Source: Polaribacter sp. (GTDB lineage: Bacteria > Bacteroidota > Bacteroidia > Flavobacteriales > Flavobacteriaceae). Taken from it: a stretch of 64,000 bases of DNA. Location: positions 14,683-78,682 of the forward strand of contig NZ_JBPOGL010000013.1 in NCBI RefSeq assembly GCF_051251875.1. The letters run 5' to 3'. Position numbers and translations under genes: made by a program. Numbering within the stretch: the first letter of the stretch is position 1; every line of letters begins with the position of its first letter. Under the pieces are notes generated by a model, which had not been told where the DNA came from, ran no database searches, and saw nothing but the letters and a program-made list of their open reading frames with translations. Below are positions 25,462 through 53,190 of the stretch, in pieces.

Positions 25462-25476
25462 TTGTGGAGACGCCGA
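25462..25476 (-). repeat. att site: displaced tmRNA-type 3' fragment (left boundary of island A)
   Basis: TTGTGGAGACGCCGA, identical to 57935-57949; minus strand TCGGCGTCTCCACAA = T-stem 3' half + acceptor strand CGTCTCC + discriminator A. Confidence 0.8.
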
Positions 25477-29864: not shown

Positions 29865-32800
29865 ATGACTTCTAAAGGTTTCTTAAATTTATTTAAAAAG
29901 AGTCTTGATCTTTTTCAGTCAAAACATGCTGTAATCGACAGATCGGGTTCATTAACCTACTTAGAGGTAGAAAATTTGTCAAACATAATTTGCCACAACC
30001 TATCAACAAATAAAAATACAGCAAATGGTACTATTGTTTTATTTCTGCCAAGGACTTCAGCTACTATCGTTTCAATACTTGGAATATGGAAGGCTGACTG
30101 TATTTACTTACCGATTGATCCAACTTTTCCGCAAGAAAGAATAAATTACATCATTCAAGATTCAAAAGCATCAGCTATCATCTCAACACCTGAATTTTCT
30201 GAAAAACTAGAACATTTAGCTATCGATATACTTCATTTTGATGACCTTGTCGAGGAAAGAAATCAAAACATTTCACCTTTATTTCAAGAGGAGAAGAGTG
30301 CCTATAAAATATACACTTCAGGATCTACTGGGCTACCAAAAGGAGTAAATATTAGTCATGCTTCTTTTTCTAATCTTCTGCAGGCCATGCAAGAGATTCT
30401 AGATCTTCAGGAATCAGATCAATTTTATGCCCTAACCACAATCTCCTTTGATATTTCTCTACTTGAATTGTTTCTACCTCTTACTTTAGGTGCTACCGTA
30501 GTAATAGCGGGGAATTTATCTAGAGATAATCCTCAAATGATGATTGAGGATCTACATACGTTTAATATATCGGCAATGCAGGCGACACCTGCACAATGGC
30601 AACTATTATTGGATGTAGGTTGGTCTGGAAACTCTAAATTGAAAGCAATATCCGGAGGGGAAAACCTTACTACTAAACTTGCTAATAGGCTCTTTACTAA
30701 AGTAGGGAAACTATGGAATATGTATGGCCCAACAGAAACAACAATCTGGTCCACTTATTACATCGTTGATGATGCAATACTTGATTCTAAAAACTCTAAA
30801 CGCTCAATTCCTATTGGATATCCAATACGCAAAACCTCTTTGTATGTTTTGGACGATGCGGGGAATAACGTAAGTGCGGATCAACTAGGAGAGTTATTTA
30901 TTGGTGGAGATGGTGTTGCTATTGGTTACATAAATGATCTTGAGAAAACCGCAGAGAGATTTGTAACAATTACAAGAAGTGGAACAGAACAACGCGTATA
31001 TAAAACAGGTGATATTGTAAAAATACTGCCCAATGGTGCCCTTGAGTTCATTCAACGAAATGACCTTCAGGTTAAGTTAAACGGTCACCGTATTGAATTA
31101 AAAGAAATAGAATCAGTAATTCGATCCTCTAACATCGTTAAAGAGGTTGTTGTTAAACCCATCACACCTTTGGAAGAAACGACCTATTTAACCGCTTTCT
31201 ATACAATTAATCAAGAATCAAAGAGTGCAAAAACACTGGGTATTAATCAGATTCGATCACTGTATGACAATATATACTCCTATAATAAGGCTGATGAACC
31301 AGTTATAGGATGGATCAACAGCTATACAAATCAACCATTTACTGCTGAAGAAATGGAGTCGTTCTACCAAAACACATATCATCGAGTTTCCAATTATATT
31401 AGCGGCGACATTCTTGAAATTGGTTTTGGTGAAGGTCATCTTATGAAAAAAATGATTCCATCATGTAATAATTATACAGGGATTGAGCTTTCTAAAAATA
31501 CATCTGAACATATAAACAAAAACCTTTTTAAGAATTATAAAAACAAAGTGCAATTACTATATGGTGAACCGGTAGAAGTTATTCAAAACCTGGATCAATT
31601 TGACTTTATCCTCATTAATTCAGTTGCTCAATACTTTCCTTCCATAAGCTACTTAAAGGAGTTATTGATTTCACTATGTAATAAAATTGGTGAGGGATTC
31701 ATATTCATTGGAGATGTTAGAAATCCGAGGCTTCAAAAATCATTTTACAGATCCCTTTTATCACAAAGAAATAACGGTACTTCTTCCAGTGATGATGAGG
31801 AAATAATTGAACAGATGTTTCAATCGGAAACCGAACTTTTTATTGACTATTTGGAATTCCAAAACCTATTGAACATAGAAAAGGTTGCAGACATTCGGTT
31901 CTTAACCAAGGATAGTCCATTTGATACTGAAATGGATCTCTTTAGGTATGATGTTTTGATCCATATCTCTTCCAATTCTAAAAAACCATCGCCAGAGCAT
32001 AGCATTGACTACATTGACAGTTATCCTGATCAATTAACTAATAAATTAAACGCTGGAAAACACTCAATTGTAAAGCTTTCAAATGTTCCCGATATTCGAT
32101 TGATCCCTTTTTCAGAAAAGCAACCAGGCTCTTCAATAATCACGTATGGAATTCCAAATTGGAAAGCTATCGCAGATCAATACAATTATAGGTTAGAAAT
32201 TCAGCCATCAAGTACTTCGAACAATAATCTTGACCTTTATTTTTATACACCCTGTATTGAGGCTATAAACCTACCAAGTTCTACTCCTCCGCGAGAGAAT
32301 TTTACCCCACAAACCGATTCGACTAAAAACATTAAGAATGCAGAGATTTTTGAAGAAATTCTTCGTGAAACTCTTCGAGAAAAATTACCTGCATATATGA
32401 TTCCAGAGCGGTATGTTATGTTAGATGAATTTCCTCTGACACACAACTGGAAGATTGATCGAGACCGTTTAACAGTTTCGGATAAAAAGGTAGAGCGTAA
32501 AAATGCTAGTGTAGCTCCAAAAAATGAACGCGAGAAGTTATTGGTCGAAATTTGGAAGGAGGTTCTGGGTATGGATGACCTTGGAATTACAGACAATTTC
32601 TTTTCACTTGGTGGAAGCAGTATTAAGGCATTACTAATCATTGCTAAGGTATATAAACAACATGGATTGACTTTACACGTTCAGGATTTCTTCCAATTCC
32701 CGATCATTGAAAAAATGGTGCAAGCACTTACTCAAGATGCAAAAGAAATTGTACTGGTTGATGAAAGCAGTTATTACCCTGTTTCACCAATGGAAGAGAG

Positions 32801-35800
32801 CATTTGGCTTCTATGCAATGACGCGGATGCAAGTCGCGCTTACAATATCGTTTATATATCCGATTTTTTATCGGAGCCTGACTTTCAATTGGTTGAAAAA
32901 ACGATTCTGTGTCTTATAAATAAACATGAATCTCTACGAACAGCTTATTCATTTTCGGATGAACTCAATGGTGTTCAACAGTATATTTCCCCCACAGACA
33001 ATACTCAATTCAGCCTAAATGTTGACGATAAGTTGCATTCCAATGCTAAGCTTACTCAATTCATCATTGATGAAAAAAACTACTTATTCGATTTAAGTAA
33101 TCCTTCACTTTTCAGGTGCTTCGTCAAAAAGAAGGAAAACGGAAAATGGGTGTTAATTTGGAATATTCATCACATAATTACTGATGGTTGGTCAATGAAT
33201 ATGCTTTTTGATGAGTTTGAAGAGATTTACAAACAGTTAGCTGAACTACGTTACATTCCTGATCATTCTAAAATTCAGAACAAAGACCATTCGATTTGGT
33301 ACAGGAAGCTGCAAGAGTCTGATTCTACAAAGAAGATGCTAAACTATTGGCGTGATCAACTAAGTGATTACGTTCCTTTTGAACTTACTTCTGATCGTCC
33401 ACGAGCAAAACTTAAGACCTATAATGGGGATCAACTTACTGTTCCTTTCACAGCTGATTTAGCCAAAATTCAGACTGATCTTGCCAGAAAAGAAAAAACG
33501 AGTGAATATACAATTGCGCTTTCTGCTTTTTTCATACTACTCAAACGATACACACAACAATCAGATTTACTGGTTGGGACACCAATAACAACGCGTACTC
33601 ATAGCCAATTGCAATCCATCGCAGGAATGCTGCTCAATACTGTGCCGATTCGTTCAAAGCTATCTGAAGAAAAAACATTCAATGAGGTACTACTCTCAAC
33701 TGAAAGGTCCGTTCAAAATGCTAGAGAAAATGGAGTTCTTGCCTTTAACAAAGTAGTTTCTGAGCTTGTAGATTCACCAGATTTAGCAAGAAATCCTTTG
33801 TTTGATATAATGTTCGTCTGGGAAGAATATTTTTCGGAGGAAAAAACCGAACGAAATGTAATTGCCAAACAGAAACTCACTACAAGTCATTCAAGTTTTG
33901 TGAAATTTGACCTTACGATTCTTATTCAAAAGGAAGAAGGTATTCCTAAGCTAACTCTTGAGTATAACACCGATTTGTTTGACAAATGGAGAATACAACA
34001 AATAGCCCAACACTTTTTCGCGATACTCCAAGCTTCAATTAAACAGGCTGATGCTCCGATTAAAAACATAAATGTACCTGTTCGACCATTACCTGTTCCC
34101 GCACAAGAAACACAACATCCATTGTCAACGTTGATGCATAGATTTGAACAACAAGTAGTTTCAAATCCAAATAATACGGCTGTAATTTTTTGTAACAACG
34201 CACTGACCTACGAAACACTTAATCGTAAAGCAAACCAACTAGCGAATCATTTAATTAGCTCATATCAAATTAAACCCGGAGATGTCATTGCTTGCTTTAT
34301 GGATCGCTCTGACAATTATATAGTAACTCTTTTAGGGATTCTTAAAACAGGAGCATGCTATATTCCATTAGCGTCTGATCTTCCAACAGAAAGAATTCAA
34401 CACATTCTTAACGAATCTGAGACTTCTGTTGTAATTACCTCTTCTGAAATGCACTTCCCTGTTTCAGACGTGGCTGTTCTTCTACTTGATGGTGAGTCTC
34501 TCAATTCGTCTGTTGAAAATCCTAAGATTCAACAAGTACCTGAGTCATTGGCTTATATAATTTATACTTCTGGTACAAGTGGGCAACCAAAGGGGGTTAT
34601 GATTTCTCATTCTGCCATTGTCAGCTATTGCAATCACCTTACTGAACAACATCCAATAAGTAAAAAAGACTGCATGGGAATGATCACCTCCCCTACTTTT
34701 GACTTATCTTACACAGCTCTTTGGCCTGCACTATTGACGGGTGCTTCAGTATGCGTTTTACCCGAAATTAAATCTCTAAACCATGAAGAGATTTCGAATT
34801 TCTTTAGGTCAATGCCCATCAATATTCTGAAATTAACACCAACGATTCTTCAATCTTTTCTGGACTTAAACATCGAGTTTCATCCAAATCTCCGTAGGTT
34901 GTTTGTTGGAGGTGAAGTTCTCCCCATGAGATTGGTTGAACAATTTCAAAAGAGATTTAATTCGGTTGAAATAGTCAATCATTACGGACCAACAGAAACG
35001 ACTGTTGGAGTTATCACTCATGCGTTAAAACCGGGTGAAATATGTCCGACTGCAACAGTACCTATAGGTAAACCTTTACCGGGTATCGAAGTCTTCGTCT
35101 TTGATGCTGAACTACATCATCGACCGATTGGATTTTCAGGTGAATTGTACATCGCTGGTCAACAACTTTCCAAGGGATATTTATGTCAGCCTGAAGTAAC
35201 AGCCAAAAGCTTTATTAAGCATCCAAAGAGTGGGGCGGTACTTTATAAAACGGGAGACATTGTACAACAAATGCCTGATGGAACGATTCTATATATAGGA
35301 AGAAAAGATCATCAGGTAAAGGTCAATGGAATTCGGGTTGAGATTGAGGAAATCATACATCAAATTGGTAGTATTTCAGAAATTAAAAATGTAGCGATTT
35401 CCTTTGTTGATAATTCAATCAATGCATATATAGTTACAACCAGGGACGTTGAATTATCTGAGCTAAGGAATCAACTTGCACTGAAGCTACCTGAATACAT
35501 GATTCCAACTCATTTTTATAGTGTAGATTCAATTCCTGTAACTCCAAATGGCAAAACAGATTTTGAAAAACTCAAAGAGAATCATAAACAAGCCGTAGAG
35601 TTTCAAAATATTGAGCGGGGTGCTTTACACGAGAAAATTTTACAATTATTCAAGGAAGTTCTGAACCGCGATGATATCCAATATTCAGATAGCTTTTTTA
35701 ATTCAGGAGGACACAGTTTAAAAGCCATGCAATTGTGCTTTCTCATTCAATCTGAGTGTAATTTATTCCTTGAACTCAATTCAATTTTCAGGTACCCAAC

Positions 35801-37190
35801 AGTTGACCAACTCACCGTATATCTAAACGAGAAAAAAACGCTGGGTGGCATACCAAAAATTAAGGACACAGAATTATATAAAACTTCTCCTCAACAACAG
35901 AGTATTTGGAGTTTATCTCAAACAACGGAGGGAAATCAAGCTTATAATGCGACTAAGGTGTATAAGCTAACAGGAGCTGTTGATGCTTTAAGTTTGGAGC
36001 AATGCTTTAAGCTTCTTCTGAAAAAGCATACATCTTTGCGTACTGCAATTATTGCAGAGCAGGGAGGGTTATTTCAGAGAATTCTTCCCGTTTCAACATC
36101 TGCATGGAAATACATTGACCAGCGATCTCAACCAGCAACGGACACTCAAATAAATTTCCTAATTCGAAAAACACTAAATTTCTCATTTAATCTTGAGGAA
36201 GGTTCTTTGTTTAAAGCCATTTTTGTGGAGTTTGATAAAGAAGTTTCATTTCTGCTTTTCTACATGCATCATATTTGTATTGATAAGTGGTCTTTCGACT
36301 TATTCTTTAACAATCTTCTTGAAGCCTATGTCACAGGAGGAGAAAAGCCATCTGAATCAGAACTTTCCTATGGAGATTATACTCATTGGTTAAGAACCGA
36401 AATTCATTCAGATGAGAATAGTTCCAAAAGTTACTGGAACCAACAATTATCCGGTTCATTGCCCTATTTGGAACTCCCTTTCTCAGGTAATCGTTCTGAC
36501 CACAAATCATTTCTGGGAAAAACGAGTGTTTTGATTTTACCTGATGTAGATTCTAAAAAGGTTCAACAACTTGCAGTTCAGCACCAGGTAAGTCCATTTT
36601 CAATTTACTATTCACTGACATGTCTATTGCTGTACACTGAAACAAGAGTAACAGACATTATTACTGGAACTCATTTTCTTGGGCGCTCCAGAAGTGACTT
36701 AGAGAAAATCGTTGGCATGTTTGTAAACACTCTACCAATTCGCGTTCAAATAAATAAAGAGCTGTCAATTGTGGAACTAGCAAAACAAGTGTACCATAAT
36801 ATCGTTTCGGGACAAATACATGAAACCTATCCATTTGCTCAGATTGTGAGCGATCTAGGGCTTAAACCTGAGATAAATAAAAACCCATTGTTTGGAATTA
36901 CGGTAGCTTACAATCAGATAACTGTTCCCCAAACGAGCGACTTGTTACCGTTTCAAATCGAACCTATTGAATCTGACACCTATGGTGGTTCAAGTAAATT
37001 CGATATATCCTTTACGTTTAATGAACATACGTTGAACAATGCTGTTCATTTTTCCATTGAATACAACGCATCACTTTATAATGATGAACAAATAGCCAAT
37101 CTTTCGAAATTGTTTTTACAGCTCCTCGATGAAGCAACTTTTTATCCTGACTTAAAAATTTCAACACTGAAATCGCCATCACAGGATTAA
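29865..37190 (+). CDS. NRPS, A(MT-interrupted)-T-C-A-T-C
   Basis: YTSGSTGLPKG/YGPTETT A cores; LEIGFGEG and INSVAQYFPS N-methyltransferase motifs; T GGSS and GGHS; C HHIITDG and terminal HHICIDK; no TE. Confidence 0.93.
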   Translation: MTSKGFLNLFKKSLDLFQSKHAVIDRSGSLTYLEVENLSNIICHNLSTNKNTANGTIVLFLPRTSATIVSILGIWKADCIYLPIDPTFPQERINYIIQDSKASAIISTPEFSEKLEHLAIDILHFDDLVEERNQNISPLFQEEKSAYKIYTSGSTGLPKGVNISHASFSNLLQAMQEILDLQESDQFYALTTISFDISLLELFLPLTLGATVVIAGNLSRDNPQMMIEDLHTFNISAMQATPAQWQLLLDVGWSGNSKLKAISGGENLTTKLANRLFTKVGKLWNMYGPTETTIWSTYYIVDDAILDSKNSKRSIPIGYPIRKTSLYVLDDAGNNVSADQLGELFIGGDGVAIGYINDLEKTAERFVTITRSGTEQRVYKTGDIVKILPNGALEFIQRNDLQVKLNGHRIELKEIESVIRSSNIVKEVVVKPITPLEETTYLTAFYTINQESKSAKTLGINQIRSLYDNIYSYNKADEPVIGWINSYTNQPFTAEEMESFYQNTYHRVSNYISGDILEIGFGEGHLMKKMIPSCNNYTGIELSKNTSEHINKNLFKNYKNKVQLLYGEPVEVIQNLDQFDFILINSVAQYFPSISYLKELLISLCNKIGEGFIFIGDVRNPRLQKSFYRSLLSQRNNGTSSSDDEEIIEQMFQSETELFIDYLEFQNLLNIEKVADIRFLTKDSPFDTEMDLFRYDVLIHISSNSKKPSPEHSIDYIDSYPDQLTNKLNAGKHSIVKLSNVPDIRLIPFSEKQPGSSIITYGIPNWKAIADQYNYRLEIQPSSTSNNNLDLYFYTPCIEAINLPSSTPPRENFTPQTDSTKNIKNAEIFEEILRETLREKLPAYMIPERYVMLDEFPLTHNWKIDRDRLTVSDKKVERKNASVAPKNEREKLLVEIWKEVLGMDDLGITDNFFSLGGSSIKALLIIAKVYKQHGLTLHVQDFFQFPIIEKMVQALTQDAKEIVLVDESSYYPVSPMEESIWLLCNDADASRAYNIVYISDFLSEPDFQLVEKTILCLINKHESLRTAYSFSDELNGVQQYISPTDNTQFSLNVDDKLHSNAKLTQFIIDEKNYLFDLSNPSLFRCFVKKKENGKWVLIWNIHHIITDGWSMNMLFDEFEEIYKQLAELRYIPDHSKIQNKDHSIWYRKLQESDSTKKMLNYWRDQLSDYVPFELTSDRPRAKLKTYNGDQLTVPFTADLAKIQTDLARKEKTSEYTIALSAFFILLKRYTQQSDLLVGTPITTRTHSQLQSIAGMLLNTVPIRSKLSEEKTFNEVLLSTERSVQNARENGVLAFNKVVSELVDSPDLARNPLFDIMFVWEEYFSEEKTERNVIAKQKLTTSHSSFVKFDLTILIQKEEGIPKLTLEYNTDLFDKWRIQQIAQHFFAILQASIKQADAPIKNINVPVRPLPVPAQETQHPLSTLMHRFEQQVVSNPNNTAVIFCNNALTYETLNRKANQLANHLISSYQIKPGDVIACFMDRSDNYIVTLLGILKTGACYIPLASDLPTERIQHILNESETSVVITSSEMHFPVSDVAVLLLDGESLNSSVENPKIQQVPESLAYIIYTSGTSGQPKGVMISHSAIVSYCNHLTEQHPISKKDCMGMITSPTFDLSYTALWPALLTGASVCVLPEIKSLNHEEISNFFRSMPINILKLTPTILQSFLDLNIEFHPNLRRLFVGGEVLPMRLVEQFQKRFNSVEIVNHYGPTETTVGVITHALKPGEICPTATVPIGKPLPGIEVFVFDAELHHRPIGFSGELYIAGQQLSKGYLCQPEVTAKSFIKHPKSGAVLYKTGDIVQQMPDGTILYIGRKDHQVKVNGIRVEIEEIIHQIGSISEIKNVAISFVDNSINAYIVTTRDVELSELRNQLALKLPEYMIPTHFYSVDSIPVTPNGKTDFEKLKENHKQAVEFQNIERGALHEKILQLFKEVLNRDDIQYSDSFFNSGGHSLKAMQLCFLIQSECNLFLELNSIFRYPTVDQLTVYLNEKKTLGGIPKIKDTELYKTSPQQQSIWSLSQTTEGNQAYNATKVYKLTGAVDALSLEQCFKLLLKKHTSLRTAIIAEQGGLFQRILPVSTSAWKYIDQRSQPATDTQINFLIRKTLNFSFNLEEGSLFKAIFVEFDKEVSFLLFYMHHICIDKWSFDLFFNNLLEAYVTGGEKPSESELSYGDYTHWLRTEIHSDENSSKSYWNQQLSGSLPYLELPFSGNRSDHKSFLGKTSVLILPDVDSKKVQQLAVQHQVSPFSIYYSLTCLLLYTETRVTDIITGTHFLGRSRSDLEKIVGMFVNTLPIRVQINKELSIVELAKQVYHNIVSGQIHETYPFAQIVSDLGLKPEINKNPLFGITVAYNQITVPQTSDLLPFQIEPIESDTYGGSSKFDISFTFNEHTLNNAVHFSIEYNASLYNDEQIANLSKLFLQLLDEATFYPDLKISTLKSPSQD

Positions 37191-40163
37191 AAACTGTTCT
37201 ATTTTTGACCAGTTCGATTTCCAGGATTCAATCAATTGATCAATTACAATATTGTCAATTTTCGCTTCATCCCAATAGACAAACAACTGTATTTCTTCCC
37301 TCTGTTCTTTAAATACAAATCCAACACCATTAAGGGACGAACGTGCTTCAAAGGGGGGAAGTAAATCTGATAAATCATCCAATTCTCCGGATCTTGGAGT
37401 AATATCAGGTATAAAGTTGAAATAGACCGGAAAGTCGGACTCAAGTTGATGCCCTAACTGTTCTTTTTGCTGAAGGAACTCATACCAAGCGTCTTTCGAT
37501 TTCATTAATGAATGAAATTGTTCAACACGCGCAATAACTGCAAATGGGTCACTATCATACTTGATCAGAAAAGGGAAATGATAGGCGAGCCATCCTACAG
37601 TTGCAGTATCATCCATACTTTCCATCTCTCCTCTTCCCGATAAAACAATCCGTGACAAGGCAGATTTCAACTCAAAAACTTCCATTACAGAAAGAGCTGA
37701 AGTAGTCAGTAGATAATTAAACGTTTCTTTGATAGCTATTCCCTTGAATGGGTTTGGGAATGAAATCATTTGAACTGCTTCTCCTTCAGTTTTTTTTACT
37801 TTAATTGATGAGGGAATAGCAACATCGTAATCTGATAGCAATGTGTTGCAATACTCTGTAGATCTTTCCGCATCCTCACTTGTTATTTGTTCTAACCAAT
37901 CGCAATAATCGGGTGAAGGTGGCAATATATTCTCTTCACATCTCAACAGATATTCCAGATTATTACGCAGCACTCTAAAGGAAATTCCATCGATTATAAA
38001 ATGATTGCACGCTAAATAAATAATTGTCTTTTCTCCATTGGGGTAAACTACAATACGCGAAAACACGCCTTCAAATGGATCAATCTCTTTCCTGTAAGTC
38101 TCTAGATTCTCAACAAACTCTTTGCTCGAAGTGTAATCACTTCCTGCGTTTATTAGTGTAAGTTGTGGCCGTTTATCAAATACTATTTCCTGTGATTCAA
38201 GATCCAATTCGAGTGCAGAAAACACGCGATAATGTTCTATCATTTTACTCAAGGCTATCGTCACAGCATCTATCTGATGACTTGCTTCCAGGAGTACTTC
38301 TAAATTGTTCGAAGAAATCTCCATTCTAGACTGTTCAATGAGCATTACTCTTTGGGAATAGTGCATCTTAACCTTACGGTAATCAAATACATGAAGATGG
38401 GCCTGATCCTTCTTCATTTTCTCCTTGATCAACATTCCCATCTGACCAATATTTTCATTGCTAATCAGGTCATTAACCGTAACGTTAACCGACCATTTCT
38501 CAAAGATTTTCAATTTCAGTAACACGACATTAATAGAGTTCCCTCCCAATGCGAAAAAGTTTGAACTTTCAGATGGAACAATCCCTTCGATTGATACTAC
38601 CTCTTTCCAAATATTAAAAAGATCCATTTGAAATTCTCCAGAGAGTTTCTGGTCTTCTTTTTGTGATTGTGGAAGTTTAAACAAACGAGCGATTGACTTT
38701 CTATCTACTTTTCCGGTTGTTCCCAAAGGAACACTATCAACCCGCATAAACCTCAAGGGAATCATATATTTTGGCAACTTAACAGCGATTGTTTCAGTTA
38801 ACTCTCTGATAAAAGCACCTTCGTCTTGTGGATCTTCGTAGGTTTTTAAACAAGTTACCAATTGATTTCCTTCCACAACGCAATAGGCTTCCTGAATTCC
38901 ATTACACGCAGAAAGAACTTGCTCAATTTCAATTAACTCAATTCTGTAACCGTTAACTTTTACTTGCAAATCCCGACGCTCAACAAACTGAACACTTTGA
39001 TCATCCTTTCTTCGAACAAGATCCCCTGTGCGAAATAGACGTAATTGTTTTCCGTTGAGGTTGATATCAACAATAGCTTTTTGCGTTAATTCATCTTGCC
39101 CAACATACCCTTTCATCAACCCAGGTGAACTTATGAAAACCTCGCCTGTTTCATCAATTTTAACAGGCACGAATTGATCATTAAGTACGTAATATTCCGT
39201 TCCATCAATGGGGTTCCCAATGAGTACAGGAATGTCTCTTTCTACTTTTGTTGCAGTTGCCCAAACAGTTGTTTCTGTTGGGCCGTAAAGATTCCATAAT
39301 TCTACTTTGCCCAAATCCAGCAATTCATTTTTCATTGCTTCTGTCATTGCTTCACCTCCACAAAACAAACGGATACTGTGATCTATTTTCCACCCATTGT
39401 TGAGCATTTGCCGATAAAACGAAGGTGTTCCTTGAATTAAAGTAACCTTGCACTTATCAATTAGCTGTGTGAGATTATCAGGGTTACCAACTTCATGTTT
39501 GGCAGCGAGTACAATTGTACTTCCTAGTATTAATGGAATGAACAGTTCAACAACATGCGGATCAAATGCAAAAGACGTTTGTGCCAAGAACACATCCCTG
39601 GATGTAAACTTCATCTGCCCCCTAAAGGCATTCATGAAATAATTAAGACCATCTTTTCGAATTGCAATTCCTTTTGGTTTACCAGTAGTTCCTGACGTAT
39701 AAATAGTATAAACTATTTCATCCGCTGCTTCAAATGGAGTATCCTTATTTCCACTGTGCAACTCTCCTTTTTGCATTAAATCACTTACAGAATGAGTCTG
39801 GACATTCATCAATTGGAATTCCTTATTCTCATCATTTGCGATTACCTGACGTATCCCCATATCTTCGAGAATAAACATCATTCGATCTTTGGGAGAATCA
39901 GGGGGAATGAACACATAAGCTCTATTCAATGACATTAGCGCAATGCTTGCAATGAGAAATTCAGGTGAACGTTCGAGGTGAATCCCAATGGTTTCATTTT
40001 TGTCGAATTGAAGAGTCGTAAGTCCTCTTCGCATCTCCGAAATTTCTTTTTCTAGATCACCATATGAAATTTCTTTTCCATCACAAATAACTGCTACTGA
40101 ATTTTGAATGTTCAATGCATGATTCTGCAACACTTCATATATTTCTAGAGTTGGTTCATTCAT
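37179..40163 (-). CDS. NRPS, A-T-C/E-like
   Basis: YTSGTTGKPKG, YGPTETT, TGKVDR; T FFALGGNS; terminal domain NHFIIDG...TVGW. Confidence 0.9.
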   Translation of the reverse strand: MNEPTLEIYEVLQNHALNIQNSVAVICDGKEISYGDLEKEISEMRRGLTTLQFDKNETIGIHLERSPEFLIASIALMSLNRAYVFIPPDSPKDRMMFILEDMGIRQVIANDENKEFQLMNVQTHSVSDLMQKGELHSGNKDTPFEAADEIVYTIYTSGTTGKPKGIAIRKDGLNYFMNAFRGQMKFTSRDVFLAQTSFAFDPHVVELFIPLILGSTIVLAAKHEVGNPDNLTQLIDKCKVTLIQGTPSFYRQMLNNGWKIDHSIRLFCGGEAMTEAMKNELLDLGKVELWNLYGPTETTVWATATKVERDIPVLIGNPIDGTEYYVLNDQFVPVKIDETGEVFISSPGLMKGYVGQDELTQKAIVDINLNGKQLRLFRTGDLVRRKDDQSVQFVERRDLQVKVNGYRIELIEIEQVLSACNGIQEAYCVVEGNQLVTCLKTYEDPQDEGAFIRELTETIAVKLPKYMIPLRFMRVDSVPLGTTGKVDRKSIARLFKLPQSQKEDQKLSGEFQMDLFNIWKEVVSIEGIVPSESSNFFALGGNSINVVLLKLKIFEKWSVNVTVNDLISNENIGQMGMLIKEKMKKDQAHLHVFDYRKVKMHYSQRVMLIEQSRMEISSNNLEVLLEASHQIDAVTIALSKMIEHYRVFSALELDLESQEIVFDKRPQLTLINAGSDYTSSKEFVENLETYRKEIDPFEGVFSRIVVYPNGEKTIIYLACNHFIIDGISFRVLRNNLEYLLRCEENILPPSPDYCDWLEQITSEDAERSTEYCNTLLSDYDVAIPSSIKVKKTEGEAVQMISFPNPFKGIAIKETFNYLLTTSALSVMEVFELKSALSRIVLSGRGEMESMDDTATVGWLAYHFPFLIKYDSDPFAVIARVEQFHSLMKSKDAWYEFLQQKEQLGHQLESDFPVYFNFIPDITPRSGELDDLSDLLPPFEARSSLNGVGFVFKEQREEIQLFVYWDEAKIDNIVIDQLIESWKSNWSKIEQFLIL

Positions 40164-41320
40164 AGATTGTTCACCTTGTAAATTGGAAAATAAGAATCAA
40201 TTGTGCCCTTTTTATAATCCTGGTTTAAAGTCAATATCTCGTCCCATTCATAAACATGATTCGTATCAATAACAGGCATCCAATCATTAGAAATGGCGTA
40301 CTCCATTGCTTCTATAGCATCGCTATATCTAGCATAATGGGTATGTATATGTTGATGCCTTTGAATACTTTCGATTGCTCTAAAATAGGACAGCTTCATA
40401 CCTTCTTTCCAACCTGAAGTCGTTATCACGCCTTGTCTGGAAAGTGCTTTTAATGTTGCTCTATACACAGGCAATCCGATATTATCAATGAAGATTGCAA
40501 CTTGACGGTTATTTGTTGCCGCATTAATGTTATTGAGAAAGATTTTCTCGCTCTTAATATAGCATTCCCGATAATTTGAATCCCTTTCATATTTATCAGG
40601 ATTAAAGTTCAAATCTGCAAATTCATTTCGATCTAGCGAATTGATTCCCAAATCAGCCAAATTTGTAAATCGCTTTTCTTTAGAGGTAATCATTAAAGTC
40701 TTAAAACCTTTTTCTTTGGCAAGTAATAACTCTGCGAATCCTACTCCACCTCCCCAAGAGGCTACCGTCATTTCAGATAAAGACACATCTGTCATTTGTG
40801 ACCTCCAGCACTTGTAACTGATTTTCCAATTTGACCAGGCCGTTATATATCTCAGTGAAAAGGCAGCCCATTGTTTCAATGAAAAATTACTTCGTGAAGG
40901 TATTCTAATTAAAGTATTCGAAGGAAGTACAGTTCTTTTTGCGAGTATACCCATTGTTCCCTTAGCATCATATCCAAGAATTTTTTTCGGAAACCCATAT
41001 TCGTCTGCTACTGCATTACAGAACACCAATGCATAATCTCCTTGTTTAAGATGGGATTGTGGGCTACCTGTTTTGAGGATTCTCACAACCCCAGCATTCC
41101 CAAGAACAATTTCCTTTTCTTTTCTCTGTAAACATATATCTACTGGGTCTCTCATAATTGCATGATGCATATTACCTTCCCAACATCCATAAATTGGTTC
41201 AACTAATATCGTCTTTATTGATAAGGTGGGAAGTTCTATTTTCTTTAAAATTAATTCACCTGGTACTCTATGTATTTTACCTTGTTCTAAAACCCATGCA
41301 TCTGTTAATTCTCTACTCAT
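40160..41320 (-). CDS. MDR-family NAD(P)H oxidoreductase, divergent crotonyl-CoA carboxylase/reductase-like
   Basis: WGGGVG Rossmann motif; LGYD and HTHYARYSDAIEA align by eye with CCR WGFE and GSHFANYREAWEA. Confidence 0.65.
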   Translation of the reverse strand: MSRELTDAWVLEQGKIHRVPGELILKKIELPTLSIKTILVEPIYGCWEGNMHHAIMRDPVDICLQRKEKEIVLGNAGVVRILKTGSPQSHLKQGDYALVFCNAVADEYGFPKKILGYDAKGTMGILAKRTVLPSNTLIRIPSRSNFSLKQWAAFSLRYITAWSNWKISYKCWRSQMTDVSLSEMTVASWGGGVGFAELLLAKEKGFKTLMITSKEKRFTNLADLGINSLDRNEFADLNFNPDKYERDSNYRECYIKSEKIFLNNINAATNNRQVAIFIDNIGLPVYRATLKALSRQGVITTSGWKEGMKLSYFRAIESIQRHQHIHTHYARYSDAIEAMEYAISNDWMPVIDTNHVYEWDEILTLNQDYKKGTIDSYFPIYKVNNL

Positions 41321-41330
41321 ACCTAATTGT

Positions 41331-42074: not shown

Positions 42075-42077
42075 TTT

Positions 42078-42872
42078 CTAACCTTTAATGCGAATTCTTC
42101 TCGTTGTTTTGGGGTATTGGGAATCTAGATCGAGAGCTTTATGCATTAGTGAATAATTATCCCATATAAGTAAGTCATTCTTTTCCCACTTGTGATAATA
42201 CAAATACTTTTTTTCTGTTGCGAAGTCATACAAATACTTGAGTAATTCGTCACTCTCCTCTTTAGGAATACCATCAAGCCCCTTTAGCCAATTTTCATTT
42301 AAGTACAAGGCTTTAATTCCAGATATTGGATGAATTTTAACTAATGGATGTTTTAAGTTATGTAAGCTATTGACGATTTCCGTTTCTGGCTCAAGTCCCA
42401 TTTCTATTAAGTCATCTACATAAATTTGCCTACATGGATAATTCCCTTCCAAATGTTCAATTCTTAATTTCATATCTTCAGGGATGTCGGAATAGGCTTG
42501 AGATAGATTACAAAATACGGTTTCTCCTCCCACCAATGGTGCTTCCTCACAAGACAATAAGGTAATTCTTGAAGGCTCTTTTGTTTGAGGTCCATCAGAA
42601 TGCCAGTACATGCCTCCTCCATTCATTCCTTTCCCCTCTACATTTGATTGCAACCTGATTGTCTCAAAGCCCAGAGCTTGATATTTGTAAGGATAAGCAA
42701 CTTCTGGTACTCCAAAATAATTAGAAAACGAATCGAAACCTGCAAAATCCAAGTTGGCATTTCTTAAAACCAAAAGTTTGTTCTTAAGTAGTAATTTCCT
42801 AAGTTTATCTTTCGTGTATTTATGAAATTCTAATATTTCAAGCACAAAATCATCTGAATTATTTATAATCAT
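42078..42872 (-). CDS. TauD/TfdA-family Fe(II)/2OG dioxygenase
   Basis: WHSDG (HxD), GGETVF, HPLVKIHP.SG.KALY, WDN..LMH, RRI. Confidence 0.92.
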   Translation of the reverse strand: MIINNSDDFVLEILEFHKYTKDKLRKLLLKNKLLVLRNANLDFAGFDSFSNYFGVPEVAYPYKYQALGFETIRLQSNVEGKGMNGGGMYWHSDGPQTKEPSRITLLSCEEAPLVGGETVFCNLSQAYSDIPEDMKLRIEHLEGNYPCRQIYVDDLIEMGLEPETEIVNSLHNLKHPLVKIHPISGIKALYLNENWLKGLDGIPKEESDELLKYLYDFATEKKYLYYHKWEKNDLLIWDNYSLMHKALDLDSQYPKTTRRIRIKG

Positions 42873-42874
42873 AT

Positions 42875-50470: not shown

Positions 50471-50508
50471 AGTTTTTTTGATATATTCATTCTTTACCCA
50501 TTCTGCTG

Positions 50509-51714
50509 TTATAAATTATTTTGAAGTGCTGAATAGACCATATTTTGAAATAAATCTAGATTAAATTCATAATAATCCGTTTTAACATCATAAGTTCGAA
50601 TAGAACTTAAGAATACTCCTACTAACTCATTTTTAGGATCCCCCCAAATACCAACACCAAATGAACCTTCATGGTGAAATGCATTTATAGGTATTAAAGA
50701 ACCATTTATGTATTTCCATCTTTCTTCACTTTGAACCGCCCAACCATAGCCTCTTGAAGCTTGGTGAATCCATAAACCATCTCTATTTTTTGCCTTTATA
50801 TTAGGGATTTGATTTTGAGTCATAATATCTATGCTCGATCTACTCAATATTCTTTTGTCCCCATAACATCCACCATTTAAAAACATTTGACAAAACTTAG
50901 CCATATCTATTGAATTAGATATTAATCCTCCTGATGCATGGGGAATAGTCAATCTCTTAAAGTTATTAGGGTCTCTTCCTGTACCCTCATAAATTTTGGG
51001 ATTTGCTGTAACTCTAGCATCTTCCGCTTCTTGTTTTAGACCAAACCATGAACTCTTCATCTCTAATGGCGTAAAAATAAACTCTTGCGAAAATTCATTT
51101 AAACTTTTTGAGCTTAGCCTTCTAACTATTTCTGAAACTAGTATATAATTAAACCCGCAATACATCATTATCCGACCAGGTTTGCACCTCGGCTTGAGTT
51201 GACTATAGCACAACTCTAACATTGAGTGAATATAAGGATGTTGATTCAGTTCACAATCAACTTGATCTCTAGGAATATCATAAGGCAGTTTTCCAATTAA
51301 TTTAAACCAATCATTTGCATTATAACCAGAGGTATGAGTTAATAAATTCCCTACCATGACCCCAGATGAAAGATTATTTTTCAATTCAGGAATATAGTCG
51401 GTAACAGGTCTAGTCAAACTCAAAATTCCATCCTCAACTAATATCATTGCTAAGGTAGCAATGACAGGTTTTGAGCAAGATGATAAACTAAATACAGCAT
51501 CTGGAGTTAATATTGAAGTTGGAATATCATATTTCAATCTACCAAAAGAATAATTAGAAACAATTACTCCTTTCCTTGCTATTAAATAAGTTAAAGCCGA
51601 AGTATTATTGTTTTCTACCCATTCTTCAGCTCTTTTTTTAATTAATTCAAGTCTCTCGTCGATGAATCCTACATCTTCGTTTTTTCCCAATACTAAAGTG
51701 GAATTGTTTATCAT
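50509..51714 (-). CDS. Serine hydrolase, beta-lactamase/PBP family, cytoplasmic
   Basis: SxxK (SCSK), LLTHTSG, YCG at the YxN position, HEG; no signal peptide or TM segment evident. Confidence 0.88.
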   Translation of the reverse strand: MINNSTLVLGKNEDVGFIDERLELIKKRAEEWVENNNTSALTYLIARKGVIVSNYSFGRLKYDIPTSILTPDAVFSLSSCSKPVIATLAMILVEDGILSLTRPVTDYIPELKNNLSSGVMVGNLLTHTSGYNANDWFKLIGKLPYDIPRDQVDCELNQHPYIHSMLELCYSQLKPRCKPGRIMMYCGFNYILVSEIVRRLSSKSLNEFSQEFIFTPLEMKSSWFGLKQEAEDARVTANPKIYEGTGRDPNNFKRLTIPHASGGLISNSIDMAKFCQMFLNGGCYGDKRILSRSSIDIMTQNQIPNIKAKNRDGLWIHQASRGYGWAVQSEERWKYINGSLIPINAFHHEGSFGVGIWGDPKNELVGVFLSSIRTYDVKTDYYEFNLDLFQNMVYSALQNNL

Positions 51715-52451
51715 TTCATATTTTTTTTGTAAGAATTAACAATAAATGAATCCCATTCAGGCTTTGGATTATCATAATGAACCATTAGATGTACTCTTCT
51801 TTCTTCAGAGATATTTATAACACTGTGTTCAATACTAATATCGAACTTAAAAGCTTTTCCTTCCTCAAAAGGGATTATACCTTTATCCTTAAGAAGGAAA
51901 TACGCTCCCTTTGGATTCGTTATCGCTATATTTACAGATTTAGGTAAGAAACTTTTCTGAGTATCTGTATGTGGAAGTATATAACCACCTGGTTCCAAAA
52001 CCATTAGTCTTATTCTATGGAAAAATTCAACTTTAAAGGAATTCTTAATTGCATTCGTTGTGATAGGACAGAGATCTGATAATTCAGTCCATTTATATGG
52101 AGTCTCAGAATCACTTTTATAACCATAATGCCTTGGAGATCTAGTTTTATTAGTTGAAAGACCATGTAAACATAAACTCCACCAACCATTATGCATTTCT
52201 TCTCCTCTATGGGTTGAACTGTTTTCATAAAAGTCAAGAACATTTAAGATCTCAGTTCTTATTTTATTTATTGGTAATCTTAAATCTATTTCTAAATAAG
52301 GTATTAAACTATTAGTACTTATCCAATCTCTGGTAATAATATTTTGTTTAGGGAATTTTTGTTTTTGGATACAAAGCGAATGTTTCTTCCAAAATTTTGT
52401 AATTTCATCTGGAAAGGGTAAGTTACTAATTATGGAATAAATATTTTCCAT
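51711..52451 (-). CDS. Aspartyl/asparaginyl beta-hydroxylase-family 2OG-Fe(II) oxygenase
   Basis: RIRLMVLEPGGYILPHTD, HSVIN, RVHLMVH. Confidence 0.85.
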   Translation of the reverse strand: MENIYSIISNLPFPDEITKFWKKHSLCIQKQKFPKQNIITRDWISTNSLIPYLEIDLRLPINKIRTEILNVLDFYENSSTHRGEEMHNGWWSLCLHGLSTNKTRSPRHYGYKSDSETPYKWTELSDLCPITTNAIKNSFKVEFFHRIRLMVLEPGGYILPHTDTQKSFLPKSVNIAITNPKGAYFLLKDKGIIPFEEGKAFKFDISIEHSVINISEERRVHLMVHYDNPKPEWDSFIVNSYKKNMK

Positions 52452-52458
52452 TGTTATA

Positions 52459-53190
52459 TTATTGTTTATTAAAGATAAATGAAAAACTCTTATTCAGAAT
52501 TTCTAAATTTGTTGCTGATGTGTTACAAATTATTGATATTTCCCTATTTTTATTTAATAGAAATATTCTAATTTTTTTTTCTTTTTTTGGAAAACAAATT
52601 GAAATACAATATTTTCTATTAATAACAAATACTAAATAATCTAAACACTCAAGGCTAAAGTTATTTATTCCTTTATAAAATTCAATTTTTGATTGATTTA
52701 AAATTTTAAAGCCAAAACTTGAAGGCTCAACATAAAGTCCTTTACCAATATATTTTAAAAAAGCCTCTTTAATAGTCCAATTTATAATTAATTCTCTATC
52801 ATTATTAATAAAACCAGTTTCTGCATCACATAAAAATGCATTTTTTAAAGGCATGTATCGATTATTAGTGTCAATTATTTTCTCAATATCAACTCCAATT
52901 CTATTTTTAGAAACCCCAAACACACTTGCTCCCTTAGATCGAGATGCGCTAAAATCATAAAAGCTAGAAACTTTTTTTTTACCATTTTTATCGGTAACAT
53001 ATTTAATGTTTTTTGCTAAAACTCCTAATTTCTTTTCTAAAACGCTTCGTTTAATAATTTGATTGGCAGCATAATTTATCTGATCGTCAATAAAAAAAAA
53101 ATTTAAATACCTGTTTATTTCTGTTTTACTTAATGTATTCAAATCTAAATCATTCGCCTGAGAATCAATACAGTAAATATAAATATCCAT
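52459..53190 (-). CDS. Sfp-type 4'-phosphopantetheinyl transferase
   Basis: FSASRS, IGVDIE, WTIKEAFLKYIGKGL. Confidence 0.92.
   Translation of the reverse strand: MDIYIYCIDSQANDLDLNTLSKTEINRYLNFFFIDDQINYAANQIIKRSVLEKKLGVLAKNIKYVTDKNGKKKVSSFYDFSASRSKGASVFGVSKNRIGVDIEKIIDTNNRYMPLKNAFLCDAETGFINNDRELIINWTIKEAFLKYIGKGLYVEPSSFGFKILNQSKIEFYKGINNFSLECLDYLVFVINRKYCISICFPKKEKKIRIFLLNKNREISIICNTSATNLEILNKSFSFIFNKQ

What the first reader, a model, noticed from the sequence alone, without database searches (positions are those of the whole stretch)
29865..53190. Intact, unfamiliar nine-gene hybrid NRPS-PKS cluster carried on a tmRNA-type integrated island in a flavobacterium
Seen: three megasynthases (A-MT-T-C-A-T-C; A-T-KS-AT-KR-ACP-C; A-T-C/E), a CCR-like reductase, SAM methyltransferase, TauD and Asp-hydroxylase oxygenases, a PBP-type hydrolase and its own PPTase. 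All frames are full length; eight genes form a tight minus-strand operon with gaps or overlaps under 40 nt. Known: such assembly lines are uncommon in small Polaribacter-type genomes. I cannot match this gene set to a characterised cluster from memory. Inference: it is a horizontally acquired pathway for a short modified peptide-ketide hybrid, and the cargo is conserved while nearby mobility genes decay.
Basis: partly seen in the sequence, partly recalled or inferred. Interest (0 to 1): 0.92.

Follow-up and report, generated by a model that had tools for sequence, protein, structure and literature searches.

The report
Orphan NRPS-PKS cluster on tmRNA island
A marine Polaribacter carries, on a mobile island inserted at its tmRNA gene, an intact nine-gene assembly line for a small proline-derived peptide-polyketide; it belongs to a rare, uncharacterised cluster family whose relatives often sit beside an extra prolyl-tRNA synthetase gene, which hints at the compound's target.

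Summary
Eight form a tight minus-strand operon.

The cluster is cargo of a 32.5-kb island. The island is bounded by two copies of the 13-nt tmRNA 3' end, each next to an integrase. A related complete genome has the same island backbone at its tmRNA but carries a polysaccharide-utilisation locus in the cargo slot.

No close homologue exists. All nine proteins are singletons at 90% identity, and the hybrid has no relative above 39%.

The cluster is still not unique in kind. Its core recurs at 25-48% identity in about eight metagenome contigs. That core comprises:
- a hybrid A(Pro)-T-KS-AT-KR-ACP-C;
- a terminal A-T-E* module, where E* is a degenerate epimerase-family domain;
- a methyltransferase, two oxygenases and a beta-lactamase-fold hydrolase;
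- a CCR-type reductase.

Family hallmarks are an AT with the motif RAGHS, a KR with His in place of the catalytic Tyr, and no thioesterase. Three independent relatives carry an adjacent ProRS gene.

Predicted product: Sar-Asp capping a proline-alkylmalonate unit linked to a small achiral amino acid, released in trans.

It is a new variant of a known kind. It is a good discovery target but not a surprise; interest 0.5.

The parts
25464..25476 (-). att-like copy 1 of the tmRNA 3' end (TCGGCGTCTCCAC) plus downstream hairpin; distal border of island A
   Evidence: the same extended repeat TTCGGGTATCGGCGTCTCCAC closes the homologous island in genome G002
25652..27106 (+). tyrosine integrase of island A (484 aa)
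   Evidence: PF00589; 81% DNA identity to the integrase next to the distal repeat in G002
27085..28420 (-). single-copy IS256/Mutator-family IS (transposase 27132-28328) inserted at the integrase 3' end
   Evidence: PF00872; terminal inverted repeats; one copy in the genome
28824..29306 (-). truncated BT4734-like (primase-type) backbone gene, 160 aa
   Evidence: PF08800 N-terminal domain only; 66% to the G002 backbone
29865..37190 (+). NRPS1, 2441 aa: A(Gly code DILQIGMIWK, with MT inserted between a8 and a9, giving sarcosine)-T-C(HHIITDG)-A(Asp code DLTKFGHVGK)-T-C(HHICIDK). Present only in the Polaribacter version of the cluster
   Evidence: absent from relatives L014, L018, L019, L078, L081
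37179..40163 (-). NRPS3, 994 aa: A(code DPVQFGLVWK, Gly-like, unassigned)-T-E*. E* (37182-38396) belongs to the epimerase-domain family but has NHFIIDG for HHxxxDG and LSGRGE for EGHGRE
40160..41320 (-). divergent CCR/ECR-like MDR reductase, 386 aa
41331..42074 (-). class I SAM methyltransferase, 247 aa
   Evidence: conserved next to the hybrid in L014, L019, L078
42078..42872 (-). TauD-family Fe(II)/2OG oxygenase, 264 aa
   Evidence: 42-48% identical orthologues in L014, L018, L019
42875..50470 (-). hybrid, 2531 aa: A(Pro-like DVQFIAQVVK; 50443-49016)-T(48931-48734)-KS(48670-47525)-AT(47062-46160; GHSTG, RAGHS)-KR(45283-44735; catalytic Tyr replaced by His)-ACP(44428-44189)-C(44080-42893; QHIDFDG)
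50509..51714 (-). cytoplasmic beta-lactamase-fold (family VIII esterase / EstG-like) serine hydrolase, 401 aa; SCSK, YCG, HEG; single domain
51711..52451 (-). AspH/LpxO-family (PF05118) 2OG oxygenase, 246 aa, HxD...H intact; fused to the hydrolase in relatives
52459..53190 (-). Sfp-type phosphopantetheinyl transferase, 243 aa
   Evidence: PPTase-AspH-hydrolase order repeated in L016 at 49/63/73% identity
53339..57337 (.). island A backbone: DUF7222, DUF3987, HTH_17 (excisionase-like), RteC with an internal 306-nt duplication
   Evidence: 67-80% DNA identity to the tmRNA-proximal end of the G002 island
57937..57949 (-). att-like copy 2 of the tmRNA 3' end; junction between island A and a second island B (integrase 58101-59354, VapE, primase, NikA, relaxase)

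Best explanation
This is an intact, probably functional, horizontally acquired hybrid NRPS-type I PKS gene cluster. It is the cargo of a 32.5-kb integrase-bearing island (window about 25476-57937). That island lies in tandem with a second island at the 3' end of the tmRNA gene of a Polaribacter.

Shown:
- gene and domain content;
- island borders, and replacement of the cargo in a relative;
- existence of a conserved cassette in distant metagenomic relatives.

Inferred assembly logic:
1. The PPTase primes five carrier domains.
2. NRPS1 makes N-methyl-Gly-Asp.
3. Its terminal C domain transfers this dipeptide onto the nitrogen of proline loaded on the hybrid. In relatives that lack NRPS1 the hybrid simply starts with free proline.
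4. The KS extends the prolyl chain. The extender is selected by an unusual RAGH-type AT and supplied by the CCR-like reductase, so it is probably an alkylmalonyl unit such as ethylmalonyl.
5. The atypical KR (Tyr replaced by His) may or may not reduce the beta-keto group.
6. The hybrid's terminal C domain links the chain to a small achiral amino acid on NRPS3 (Gly-like here, beta-Ala-like in relatives).
7. The line ends in T-E* with no thioesterase. The chain is then taken off in trans by the beta-lactamase-fold serine hydrolase, through hydrolysis or cyclisation.
8. TauD, the AspH-like oxygenase and the methyltransferase decorate the proline-ketide core. The model here is proline-ring hydroxylation in detoxin/rimosamide-type compounds.

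The product would be a roughly 400-500 Da 'dolaproine/detoxinine-like' peptide-ketide.
For: Intactness and domains.

A-domain codes:
- Gly (DILQIGMIWK, plus MT in a8-a9).
- Asp (DLTKFGHVGK).
- Pro-like (DVQFIAQVVK; canonical DVQFYAHVVK and DVQFFAHVVK in relatives).
- Gly-like (DPVQFGLVWK).

The conserved cassette carries the same peculiarities throughout: RAGHS, KR His, QHxxFDG, and an E* with an altered first His (N, S or H). It is seen in L014, L018, L019/L059, L078, L081 and a JGI contig.

Only the hybrid-to-A-T-E* order is possible in relatives without NRPS1. That leaves Pro-S-T as the one free acceptor for NRPS1's terminal C domain.

CCR link:
- True CCRs sit beside the hybrid in L018 (TIGR01751 at 531 bits), L081 and L080.
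- The profile of the window enzyme's family hits CCR structures best (7.7e-14).
- Its AF2 model (pLDDT 89.7) is closest to ECR/CCR, TM 0.76-0.80.
- It keeps counterparts of the Asn, aromatic-acidic pair and His of the CCR pocket.

E* is an epimerase-family domain: 1e-16 to 1e-23 against TycA/GrsA E domains, versus 3e-4 against C domains.

The hydrolase has an intact SxxK and no signal peptide. It is fused to the AspH-like enzyme in three relatives.

A TauD-type enzyme hydroxylates the proline ring of the Pro-malonate unit in DRL compounds (PMC12828459).

Island.
Against:
- The KR lacks the catalytic Tyr, so the oxidation state at C3 is open.
- The window's reductase is far below the CCR family cut-off (52.6 vs 378.55 bits). 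It belongs to a widespread separate clade that is also found beside fatty-acid-type genes.
- The hydrolase is not SurE-like. It is a single domain with no lipocalin domain, and its nearest folds are family VIII esterases, EstG and a macrolactin acyltransferase. It could therefore be an acyltransferase or esterase and not the release enzyme.
- The order of the three synthetases is deduced, not shown.
- The code DPVQFGLVWK matches no substrate I can assign.
It reproduced DAWTIAAICK at the ten code positions only; the rest of the sequence was not verified.
Confidence: 0.55

Rival explanations
1. Release is not performed by the beta-lactamase-fold enzyme. The terminal E*-like domain releases the chain itself, as hydrolytic or cyclising condensation-family domains do (crocacin-type hydrolytic C; fungal CT). 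Alternatively the chain cyclises spontaneously. The serine hydrolase would then act as a LovD/macrolactin-acyltransferase-type acyltransferase, a de-esterifying partner of the methyltransferase, or an immunity enzyme.
For: Foldseek puts family VIII esterases, EstG and the macrolactin acyltransferase 6KJH first. SurE and Ulm16 are absent from the top 50. E* keeps the second His and the Asp of the motif (NHFIIDG) in the window and its closest relatives. The methyltransferase's best NCBIfam hit, though weak, is BioC. The crocacin and LovD precedents come from my own knowledge.
Against: E* is closest to true epimerase domains, not to C or CT domains. The first His varies (N, S or H) and the last motif residue drifts (G, D, A or E) across the family. 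The hydrolase is one of the few invariant genes of the cassette and lies next to the megasynthase genes.
Confidence: 0.3
2. The cluster makes a beta-hydroxyaspartate-type siderophore. TauD and/or the AspH-like enzyme hydroxylate the Asp loaded by NRPS1, as in marine hydroxyaspartate siderophores.
For: There is an Asp-specific A domain, two Fe/2OG oxygenases sit in the operon, and the host is marine.
Against: Both oxygenases are conserved in relatives that have no Asp module at all (L014, L018, L019), and in L078 two P450s replace them. Island A has no TonB receptor, ABC importer or reductase gene. The product would have at most one bidentate ligand.
Confidence: 0.08
3. The cluster is a silent or non-functional relic. 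The degenerate KR (Tyr to His), the degenerate E domain and the lack of a thioesterase would mean the line no longer makes a product.
For: KR His, the E* motif changes, no TE, an IS and truncated backbone genes nearby, and no expression data.
Against: All nine frames are open over 23 kb. The same 'defects' are conserved in relatives only 32-33% identical, which indicates selection, not decay. All other catalytic motifs are intact.
Confidence: 0.1

Closest known systems
Detoxin/rimosamide-like (DRL) clusters (detoxins, rimosamides, pseudovibriamides, chitinimides, pseudotetraivprolides; PMC12828459)
   Same: A proline-specific A-T is followed directly by one PKS module (KS-KR-ACP), which builds a Pro-plus-malonate unit. 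A conserved TauD-type dioxygenase accompanies it and, in DRL, hydroxylates the proline ring. Extra NRPS modules add a short peptide.
   Different: All DRL hybrids lack an AT (FabD acts in trans) and end in a TE. A second TE-bearing NRPS makes an ester. Here there is a cis-AT with an RAGH motif plus a CCR-type enzyme, no TE anywhere, a terminal C domain, an extra A-T-E* module, an AspH-like oxygenase and a beta-lactamase-fold hydrolase. No sequence relationship above generic domain level was seen.
SurE-type PBP-type thioesterase systems (surugamide, desotamide/wollamide, ulleungmycin; PMC11735501)
   Same: The assembly line has no cis thioesterase, and its last module ends T-E. A stand-alone penicillin-binding-protein-fold serine enzyme is encoded beside it. 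Some members (WolJ, Ulm16) accept a C-terminal Gly.
   Different: [quoted passage not shown] This enzyme is a single 401-aa domain whose nearest folds are family VIII esterases, EstG and a macrolactin acyltransferase, not SurE or Ulm16. In relatives it is fused to a 2OG oxygenase. The E domain here appears catalytically degenerate.
CCR-dependent unusual-extender PKS modules (e.g. cinnabaramide CinF, antimycin AntE, salinosporamide SalG)
   Same: A crotonyl-CoA carboxylase/reductase-type enzyme is encoded next to a PKS module whose AT lacks the malonyl (HAFH) and methylmalonyl (YASH) motifs.
   Different: The window's enzyme is only 18% identical to solved CCRs and is far below the TIGR01751 cut-off. 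It belongs to a separate, widespread clade with a shortened WGGGV nucleotide motif. True CCRs occupy this role in relatives L018, L080 and L081.
tRNA/tmRNA-targeting integrative islands of Bacteroidota (RteC/excisionase-regulated mobilisable elements)
   Same: There is a tyrosine integrase, direct repeats of the ssrA 3' end, tandem accretion of two islands, RteC plus an HTH_17 excision module, and variable cargo at one site in different strains.
   Different: The cargo is a secondary-metabolite cluster, not a PUL or resistance genes. No CTnDOT-type transfer genes are present (TraJ absent).

Membership tests
Hybrid NRPS / type I PKS assembly line | Adenylation, carrier, condensation, KS and AT domains with intact catalytic motifs, plus a PPTase | tested here: met
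   Pfam/NCBIfam. Motifs: TSGxTGxPK, NxYGPTE and the A10 Lys; GGxS / GVDSL; HHIITDG; TACSTS/HGTGT/NIGH; GHSTG.
Hybrid NRPS / type I PKS assembly line | Chain-terminating thioesterase or reductase domain | tested here: not met
   No PF00975 or PF07993 hit in any of the nine proteins. The same is true in relatives L014, L018, L019, L078 and L081.
Detoxin/rimosamide-like (DRL) BGC | Signature hybrid without an AT domain, ending in a TE (PMC12828459) | tested here: not met
   Acyl_transf_1 is present at residues 1137-1437 (161 bits). The hybrid has a C-terminal Condensation domain and no TE.
Detoxin/rimosamide-like (DRL) BGC | Pro-specific A domain feeding one KS-KR-ACP module, plus a conserved TauD-type dioxygenase | tested here: met
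   Code DVQFIAQVVK here, and DVQFYAHVVK / DVQFFAHVVK in relatives. TauD at 158 bits. Orthology to PipE was not tested.
PBP-type thioesterase (SurE family) | Stand-alone PBP-fold enzyme with a catalytic SxxK, next to a TE-less NRPS whose last module ends T-E | tested here: met
   SCSK at 79-82, no signal peptide. NRPS3 ends in an E-family domain.
PBP-type thioesterase (SurE family) | C-terminal lipocalin-like domain, and closest structural similarity to SurE/Ulm16 (PMC11735501) | tested here: not met
   The AF2 model (pLDDT 94) is one domain of 401 aa. Foldseek top hits are 4IVI, 7U1C and 6KJH; 6KSU and 8FEK are not among the top 50. phmmer against PDB gave no SurE hit at 1e-5.
PBP-type thioesterase (SurE family) | C-terminal D-amino acid (or Gly) on the released chain | tested here: inconclusive
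   The terminal A domain code is Gly-like here and beta-Ala-like in relatives. E* lacks the first His and the EGHGRE Glu.
Crotonyl-CoA carboxylase/reductase (TIGR01751) | Score above the family's curated cut-off | tested here: not met
   52.6 bits against a cut-off of 378.55. The L018 neighbour scores 531.6.
Crotonyl-CoA carboxylase/reductase (TIGR01751) | ECR fold and counterparts of the CO2-pocket residues (Asn, Phe-Glu, His) | tested here: inconclusive
   Foldseek's best hits are ECR/CCR, TM 0.76-0.80. The alignment with the L018 CCR gives N50, Y117-D118 and H328, invariant in the family. The assignment of pocket residues rests on my memory of the literature.
tmRNA-integrating genomic island | Tyrosine integrase plus direct repeats of the ssrA 3' end bounding the element, with different cargo at the same site in relatives | tested here: met
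   The 13-mer occurs three times in the genome, each copy with a hairpin and two of them with integrases. G002 has a 69-kb island with the same repeats and backbone but a PUL as cargo.
tmRNA-integrating genomic island | Physical continuity with the intact tmRNA gene | tested here: inconclusive
   The tmRNA is 157 nt from the start of contig C45. The C5 end and the C45 start both abut the same multi-copy repeat, so the join is plausible but not assembled.
Hydroxyaspartate siderophore NRPS | Asp module with a dedicated beta-hydroxylase, plus uptake genes | tested here: not met
   The oxygenases are conserved without Asp modules in relatives. There are no receptor or transporter genes in island A.

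The most novel reading that the evidence does not exclude
The conserved cassette makes a proline-mimicking inhibitor of prolyl-tRNA synthetase. Three independent relatives keep a ProRS gene inside or beside the cluster as a self-resistance copy: L014, L019/L059, and L078, where it lies in the same-strand operon. The Polaribacter version has no second ProRS. It has acquired NRPS1 instead, whose Sar-Asp cap on the proline nitrogen would mask the warhead. That would make the compound a Trojan-horse or prodrug form, unmasked by peptidases in target cells. If so, this is a new natural-product class against ProRS, with two alternative self-protection strategies in one cluster family.
Probability: 0.15. 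Interest if true: 0.8.

Novelty: new variant of a known kind. Interest (0 to 1): 0.5.

Why it matters
The cluster defines a rare NRPS-PKS family: roughly 15 clusters at 50% identity among 1.84 bn representative proteins. No product is known for it.

The family combines several features that are unusual together:
- TE-less T-E* termination with a beta-lactamase-fold hydrolase, often fused to a 2OG oxygenase.
- An RAGH-type AT coupled to CCR enzymes.
- A KR with a conserved His in place of the catalytic Tyr.

Recurrent linkage to ProRS gives a concrete target hypothesis that can be tested.

The Polaribacter strain appears to be an isolate and is the only species genome found to carry the family. 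That would make it the practical entry point for finding the compound.

The island comparison also shows one flavobacterial tmRNA island backbone carrying either a glycan-utilisation locus or a secondary-metabolite cluster. This is a clear example of cargo exchange in marine Bacteroidota.

Tried and rejected
- **tmRNA in the window.** None found by ARAGORN or Rfam. This was resolved by finding the 13-nt repeats and the tmRNA on another contig.
- **Genome-contig scans.** Scans with the reductase and with an AspH-like alignment found no relative in 185,579 species genomes.
- **Chitinophaga and Myxococcus neighbours of the reductase family**. They are not syntenic with this cluster, so I rejected them as cluster relatives.
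- **Myxococcota tandem hydrolase paralogues (L015).** No NRPS context.
- **About 40 low-GC metagenome contigs with AspH-like genes.** They carry no other cluster gene, so the context is unrelated.
- **The genome search with the 2531-aa hybrid over the family.** The call errored.
- **Record behind L014.** Not held.
- **The look-up of sequencing runs.** Closed, so there is no expression evidence.
- **Literature.** Nothing found on an RAGH AT motif or on a ProRS resistance gene in an NRPS-PKS cluster.
- **CTnDOT-type TraJ.** Absent from this genome and from G002, so the island is not a CTnDOT-like conjugative element.
- **Siderophore reading.** Rejected because the oxygenases are conserved without Asp modules.
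- **SurE-family membership of the hydrolase.** Rejected on structure.


Full report
**1. The observation**

The window is G000:C5:14683-78682 of a 3.92-Mb, 67-contig genome. The organism is a Polaribacter: its aldehyde dehydrogenase falls in the same 90%-identity cluster as that of 'Polaribacter sp. Asnod1-A03'.

Among the eight minus-strand genes the spacings are 7, -4, 38, 2, 3, 10 and -4 nt. The plus-strand NRPS converges on them with a 12-nt overlap.

Pfam and NCBIfam confirm the domain strings:
- NRPS1: A(MT)-T-C-A-T-C.
- Hybrid: A-T-KS-AT-KR-ACP-C.
- NRPS3: A-T plus a weak condensation-superfamily domain.
- An MDR protein whose only family-level resemblance is to crotonyl-CoA carboxylase/reductase (52.6 bits, cut-off 378.55).
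- A class I methyltransferase, TauD, a PF00144 serine hydrolase, a PF05118 (Asp/Arg-hydroxylase family) oxygenase, and an Sfp-type PPTase.

Core motifs are intact.

**2. Domain detail**

Specificity codes were read against GrsA-PheA.

| A domain | Code | Reading |
|---|---|---|
| NRPS1-A1 | DILQIGMIWK | Gly; about 430-aa MT inserted between a8 and a9, hence sarcosine |
| NRPS1-A2 | DLTKFGHVGK | Asp |
| Hybrid A | DVQFIAQVVK | Pro-like |
| NRPS3-A | DPVQFGLVWK | Gly-like, not assignable |

Other domains:
- The AT has GHSTG and RAGHS, neither the malonyl HAFH nor the methylmalonyl YASH motif.
- The KR keeps its nucleotide motif, Lys and Ser. It has His where the catalytic Tyr should be (GQSNHGGANAF).
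- Condensation motifs are HHIITDG and HHICIDK in NRPS1 and QHIDFDG in the hybrid.
- A profile of NRPS3's C-terminal domain with two relatives hits epimerisation domains (TycA, GrsA, BacC, PvdL) at 1e-16 to 1e-23, and condensation domains only at 3e-4. It is therefore an E-family domain. It reads NHFIIDG instead of HHxxxDG and LSGRGE instead of EGHGRE, and it follows an A domain for an achiral substrate. I call it E* and doubt that it epimerises.

**3. The accessory enzymes**

*Reductase.* It has no PDB relative by single-sequence search. A 32-member family profile hits CCR structures first (4GI2 at 7.7e-14, full length). Its AlphaFold model (pLDDT 89.7) is closest to ECR/CCR structures, TM 0.76-0.80 at 18% identity. 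Aligned with a bona fide CCR, it keeps an Asn, a Tyr-Asp pair and a His at the positions I recall as the CO2 pocket.

*Hydrolase.* It has SCSK, YCG and HEG motifs and no signal peptide. Its model (pLDDT 94) is a single domain. The closest folds are family VIII carboxylesterases, EstG and a macrolactin acyltransferase. SurE and Ulm16 are not among the top 50 hits.

*AspH-like enzyme.* It has an intact HxD...H triad.

**4. Relatives**

All nine proteins are singletons at 90% identity among about 15 bn sequences. The hybrid has no relative above 39% identity in 5.8 bn clusters. Two scans of 185,579 species genomes found nothing.

The hydrolase search then revealed proteins in which the AspH-like and hydrolase parts are fused. 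Their contigs carry a syntenic cassette. Further members came from a metagenome scan with the AspH-like alignment, from six-frame comparison, and from a profile search with E* followed by context look-ups.

Members found:

| Locus | Gene content |
|---|---|
| L014 | ProRS, TauD, MT, hybrid, AspH~hydrolase fusion, A-T-E* |
| L018 | hybrid, true CCR (TIGR01751 at 531 bits), TauD, AspH~hydrolase fusion, A-T-E* |
| L019/L059 | A-T-E*, hybrid, MT, TauD, AspH, hydrolase, ProRS |
| L078 | hybrid, MT, two P450s, PF00144 hydrolase, A-T-E*, two unknowns, ProRS; all on one strand |
| L081 | CCR, hybrid, A-T-E*, PPTase |
| L080, L079, one JGI contig | fragments |
| L016/L017 (GC 0.35) | PPTase-AspH-hydrolase in the window's order at 49/63-76/73% identity; the nearest relative, on very short contigs |

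The hybrids align colinearly over about 2500 residues at 32-33% identity with the window's hybrid.

RAGHS and QHxxFDG are seen in all six hybrids examined. The KR His is seen in the five whose KR could be read (the KR motif was not recovered from the partial L078 hybrid). The Pro-type code is seen in the four whose A domain could be read. These oddities are therefore selected features, not decay.

None of the relatives has NRPS1. The terminal A domain is beta-Ala-like (VDxVxSxxDK) in three family members and DPxQ(L/F)GxV(W/Y)K in nine, including the window.

**5. Mechanism**

In relatives without NRPS1, the only possible order is the hybrid (free Pro starter) followed by A-T-E*. The hybrid's terminal C domain therefore serves the A-T-E* carrier. 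In the window, the single remaining acceptor for NRPS1's terminal C domain is Pro-S-T on the hybrid. That gives the order NRPS1, then hybrid, then NRPS3.

The predicted chain is Sar-Asp-Pro-[C3 keto or hydroxy, C2 alkyl]-CO-(Gly-like). The CCR association and the non-canonical AT motif argue for an alkylmalonyl extender.

Termination by T-E* with no TE, plus a neighbouring PBP-fold serine enzyme, mirrors the logic of SurE-type systems (PMC11735501). The enzyme fails two defining features of that family, the lipocalin domain and structural proximity. I therefore claim only that it may work like one. I keep a substantial rival in which it is an acyltransferase or esterase and E* or spontaneous chemistry releases the chain.

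TauD and the AspH-like enzyme cannot be there for Asp, because they are conserved where no Asp module exists. By analogy with DRL compounds, where the conserved TauD-type PipE hydroxylates the proline ring of the Pro-malonate unit (PMC12828459), I assign them to the Pro-ketide core.

**6. ProRS**

A prolyl-tRNA synthetase gene lies beside the cluster in L019/L059 (TIGR00408 at 484.7 bits). One lies beside it in L014, in a different arrangement, recognised by its N-terminus. One lies inside the same-strand operon of L078. The three copies are only 35-53% identical to one another, so this is not one inherited neighbourhood.

For a proline-derived product, a resistance copy of the target is the obvious reading. 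It remains an inference.

The Polaribacter genome has one ProRS, on contig C28, and none in the island. It is also the only member with the Sar-Asp module. A prodrug or masking role for that cap is my most novel, low-probability reading.

**7. The island**

The left flank up to about 21 kb is core chromosome: isocitrate dehydrogenase, trmD, the L19 leader, lutABC, ALDH and AraC.

The 13-mer TCGGCGTCTCCAC occurs three times in the genome. The copies are at the tmRNA 3' end (C45:172), at window 25464-25476 and at window 57937-57949. All three are in the same orientation and are followed by a hairpin. The two window copies are each followed by an integrase.

Island A (about 25.5-57.9 kb) holds the cluster. 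Island B starts at 57.9 kb with an integrase, VapE, a primase, NikA and a relaxase. The end of contig C5 and the start of C45 abut the same multi-copy repeat, so the order tmRNA - B - A is plausible but not assembled.

In the complete genome G002 of the same genus, the flank is 76% identical. Its tmRNA is followed by a 69-kb island bounded by the same repeats. The integrase end and the DUF7222-DUF3987-HTH-RteC end match island A at 66-82%. The cargo slot instead holds a PUL with two GH2 beta-galactosidases and a SusC-type receptor.

In the window, an IS256-family element sits at the integrase's last codons, and the BT4734-like gene is a 160-aa stump.

Within the genus, 23 of 151 species genomes have condensation domains. 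None has a module more than 33% identical to NRPS1 module 2.

**8. Verdict**

This is a real, intact, horizontally acquired cluster of an uncharacterised but recurrent family: a new variant of a known kind. Orphan NRPS-PKS clusters on islands are common, so a specialist would be interested rather than astonished.

Its value lies in the following:
- it is the one species genome found to carry the family, and apparently a cultured isolate;
- the unusual enzymology (T-E* plus esterase-fold release, oxygenase-hydrolase fusion, His-KR, RAGH-AT/CCR);
- the ProRS lead.

Noticed in passing
window 57937-64000: A second island (B) starts at the second tmRNA-3'-end repeat. It carries an integrase (58101-59354), a 335-aa unknown, HTH_17, VapE, a CHC2/Toprim primase, NikA and a MobA/VirD2 relaxase, and runs off the window. 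It looks like a mobilisable element that inserted at the tmRNA after island A.
   Followed up: partly
window 56288-56866: The RteC-like gene (56246-57337) contains an internal tandem duplication: period 306 nt, 1.9 copies, 85% matches. It also has a 15-nt repeat at 56540-56590.
   Followed up: partly
window 27085-28420: A single-copy IS256/Mutator-family IS with about 31-nt imperfect terminal inverted repeats. It is inserted so that its left end overlaps the last codons of the island A integrase. Homology to the G002 integrase stops at 27076.
   Followed up: partly
L074-L077 (G002:C1:1901469-1970486): A congeneric complete genome has a 69-kb island at its tmRNA with the same att repeats and backbone. 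Its cargo is a polysaccharide-utilisation locus: GH2 beta-galactosidases and a SusC-like receptor, plus (by eye) a hybrid two-component regulator, a sulfatase and T9SS-tagged proteins.
   Followed up: partly
window 40160-41320 and P0002-P0120: The reductase belongs to a large, unannotated clade: 1424 hits, about 50% identity across Bacteroidota, Myxococcota, Chloroflexota and Acidobacteriota. It is ECR-like with a shortened WGGGV nucleotide motif. It is found beside an NRPS-PKS hybrid in Chitinophaga sp. HK235 and beside KAS III/ACP/SDR genes in a Myxococcus. Its function appears to be unstudied.
   Followed up: partly
window 44735-45283 (KR of the hybrid): The catalytic Tyr of the KR is His in the window and in four distant relatives, while the NADPH motif, Lys and Ser are kept. 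I know of no described KR class with this substitution.
   Followed up: partly
L020-L062: About 40 mostly low-GC metagenome contigs carry stand-alone homologues (31-45% identity) of the AspH-like oxygenase with none of the other cluster genes. Their context was not examined.
   Followed up: no
G000:C67:41144-43733: The genome holds a second copy of the ALDH-AraC pair at 79-80% DNA identity to window 18652-21281.
   Followed up: no
window 21453-25160: Between the core flank and the island border lie a Fic/DUF4172 gene, an AAA_14/DUF4143 ATPase and a short unannotated ORF region. They may be remains of an older insertion. Window 25000-25200 is 73% like C13:64479-64681.
   Followed up: no
window 7949-7978: Rfam L19-Flavobacteria ribosomal-protein leader (38.3 bits), upstream of rplS. 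Ordinary.
   Followed up: no
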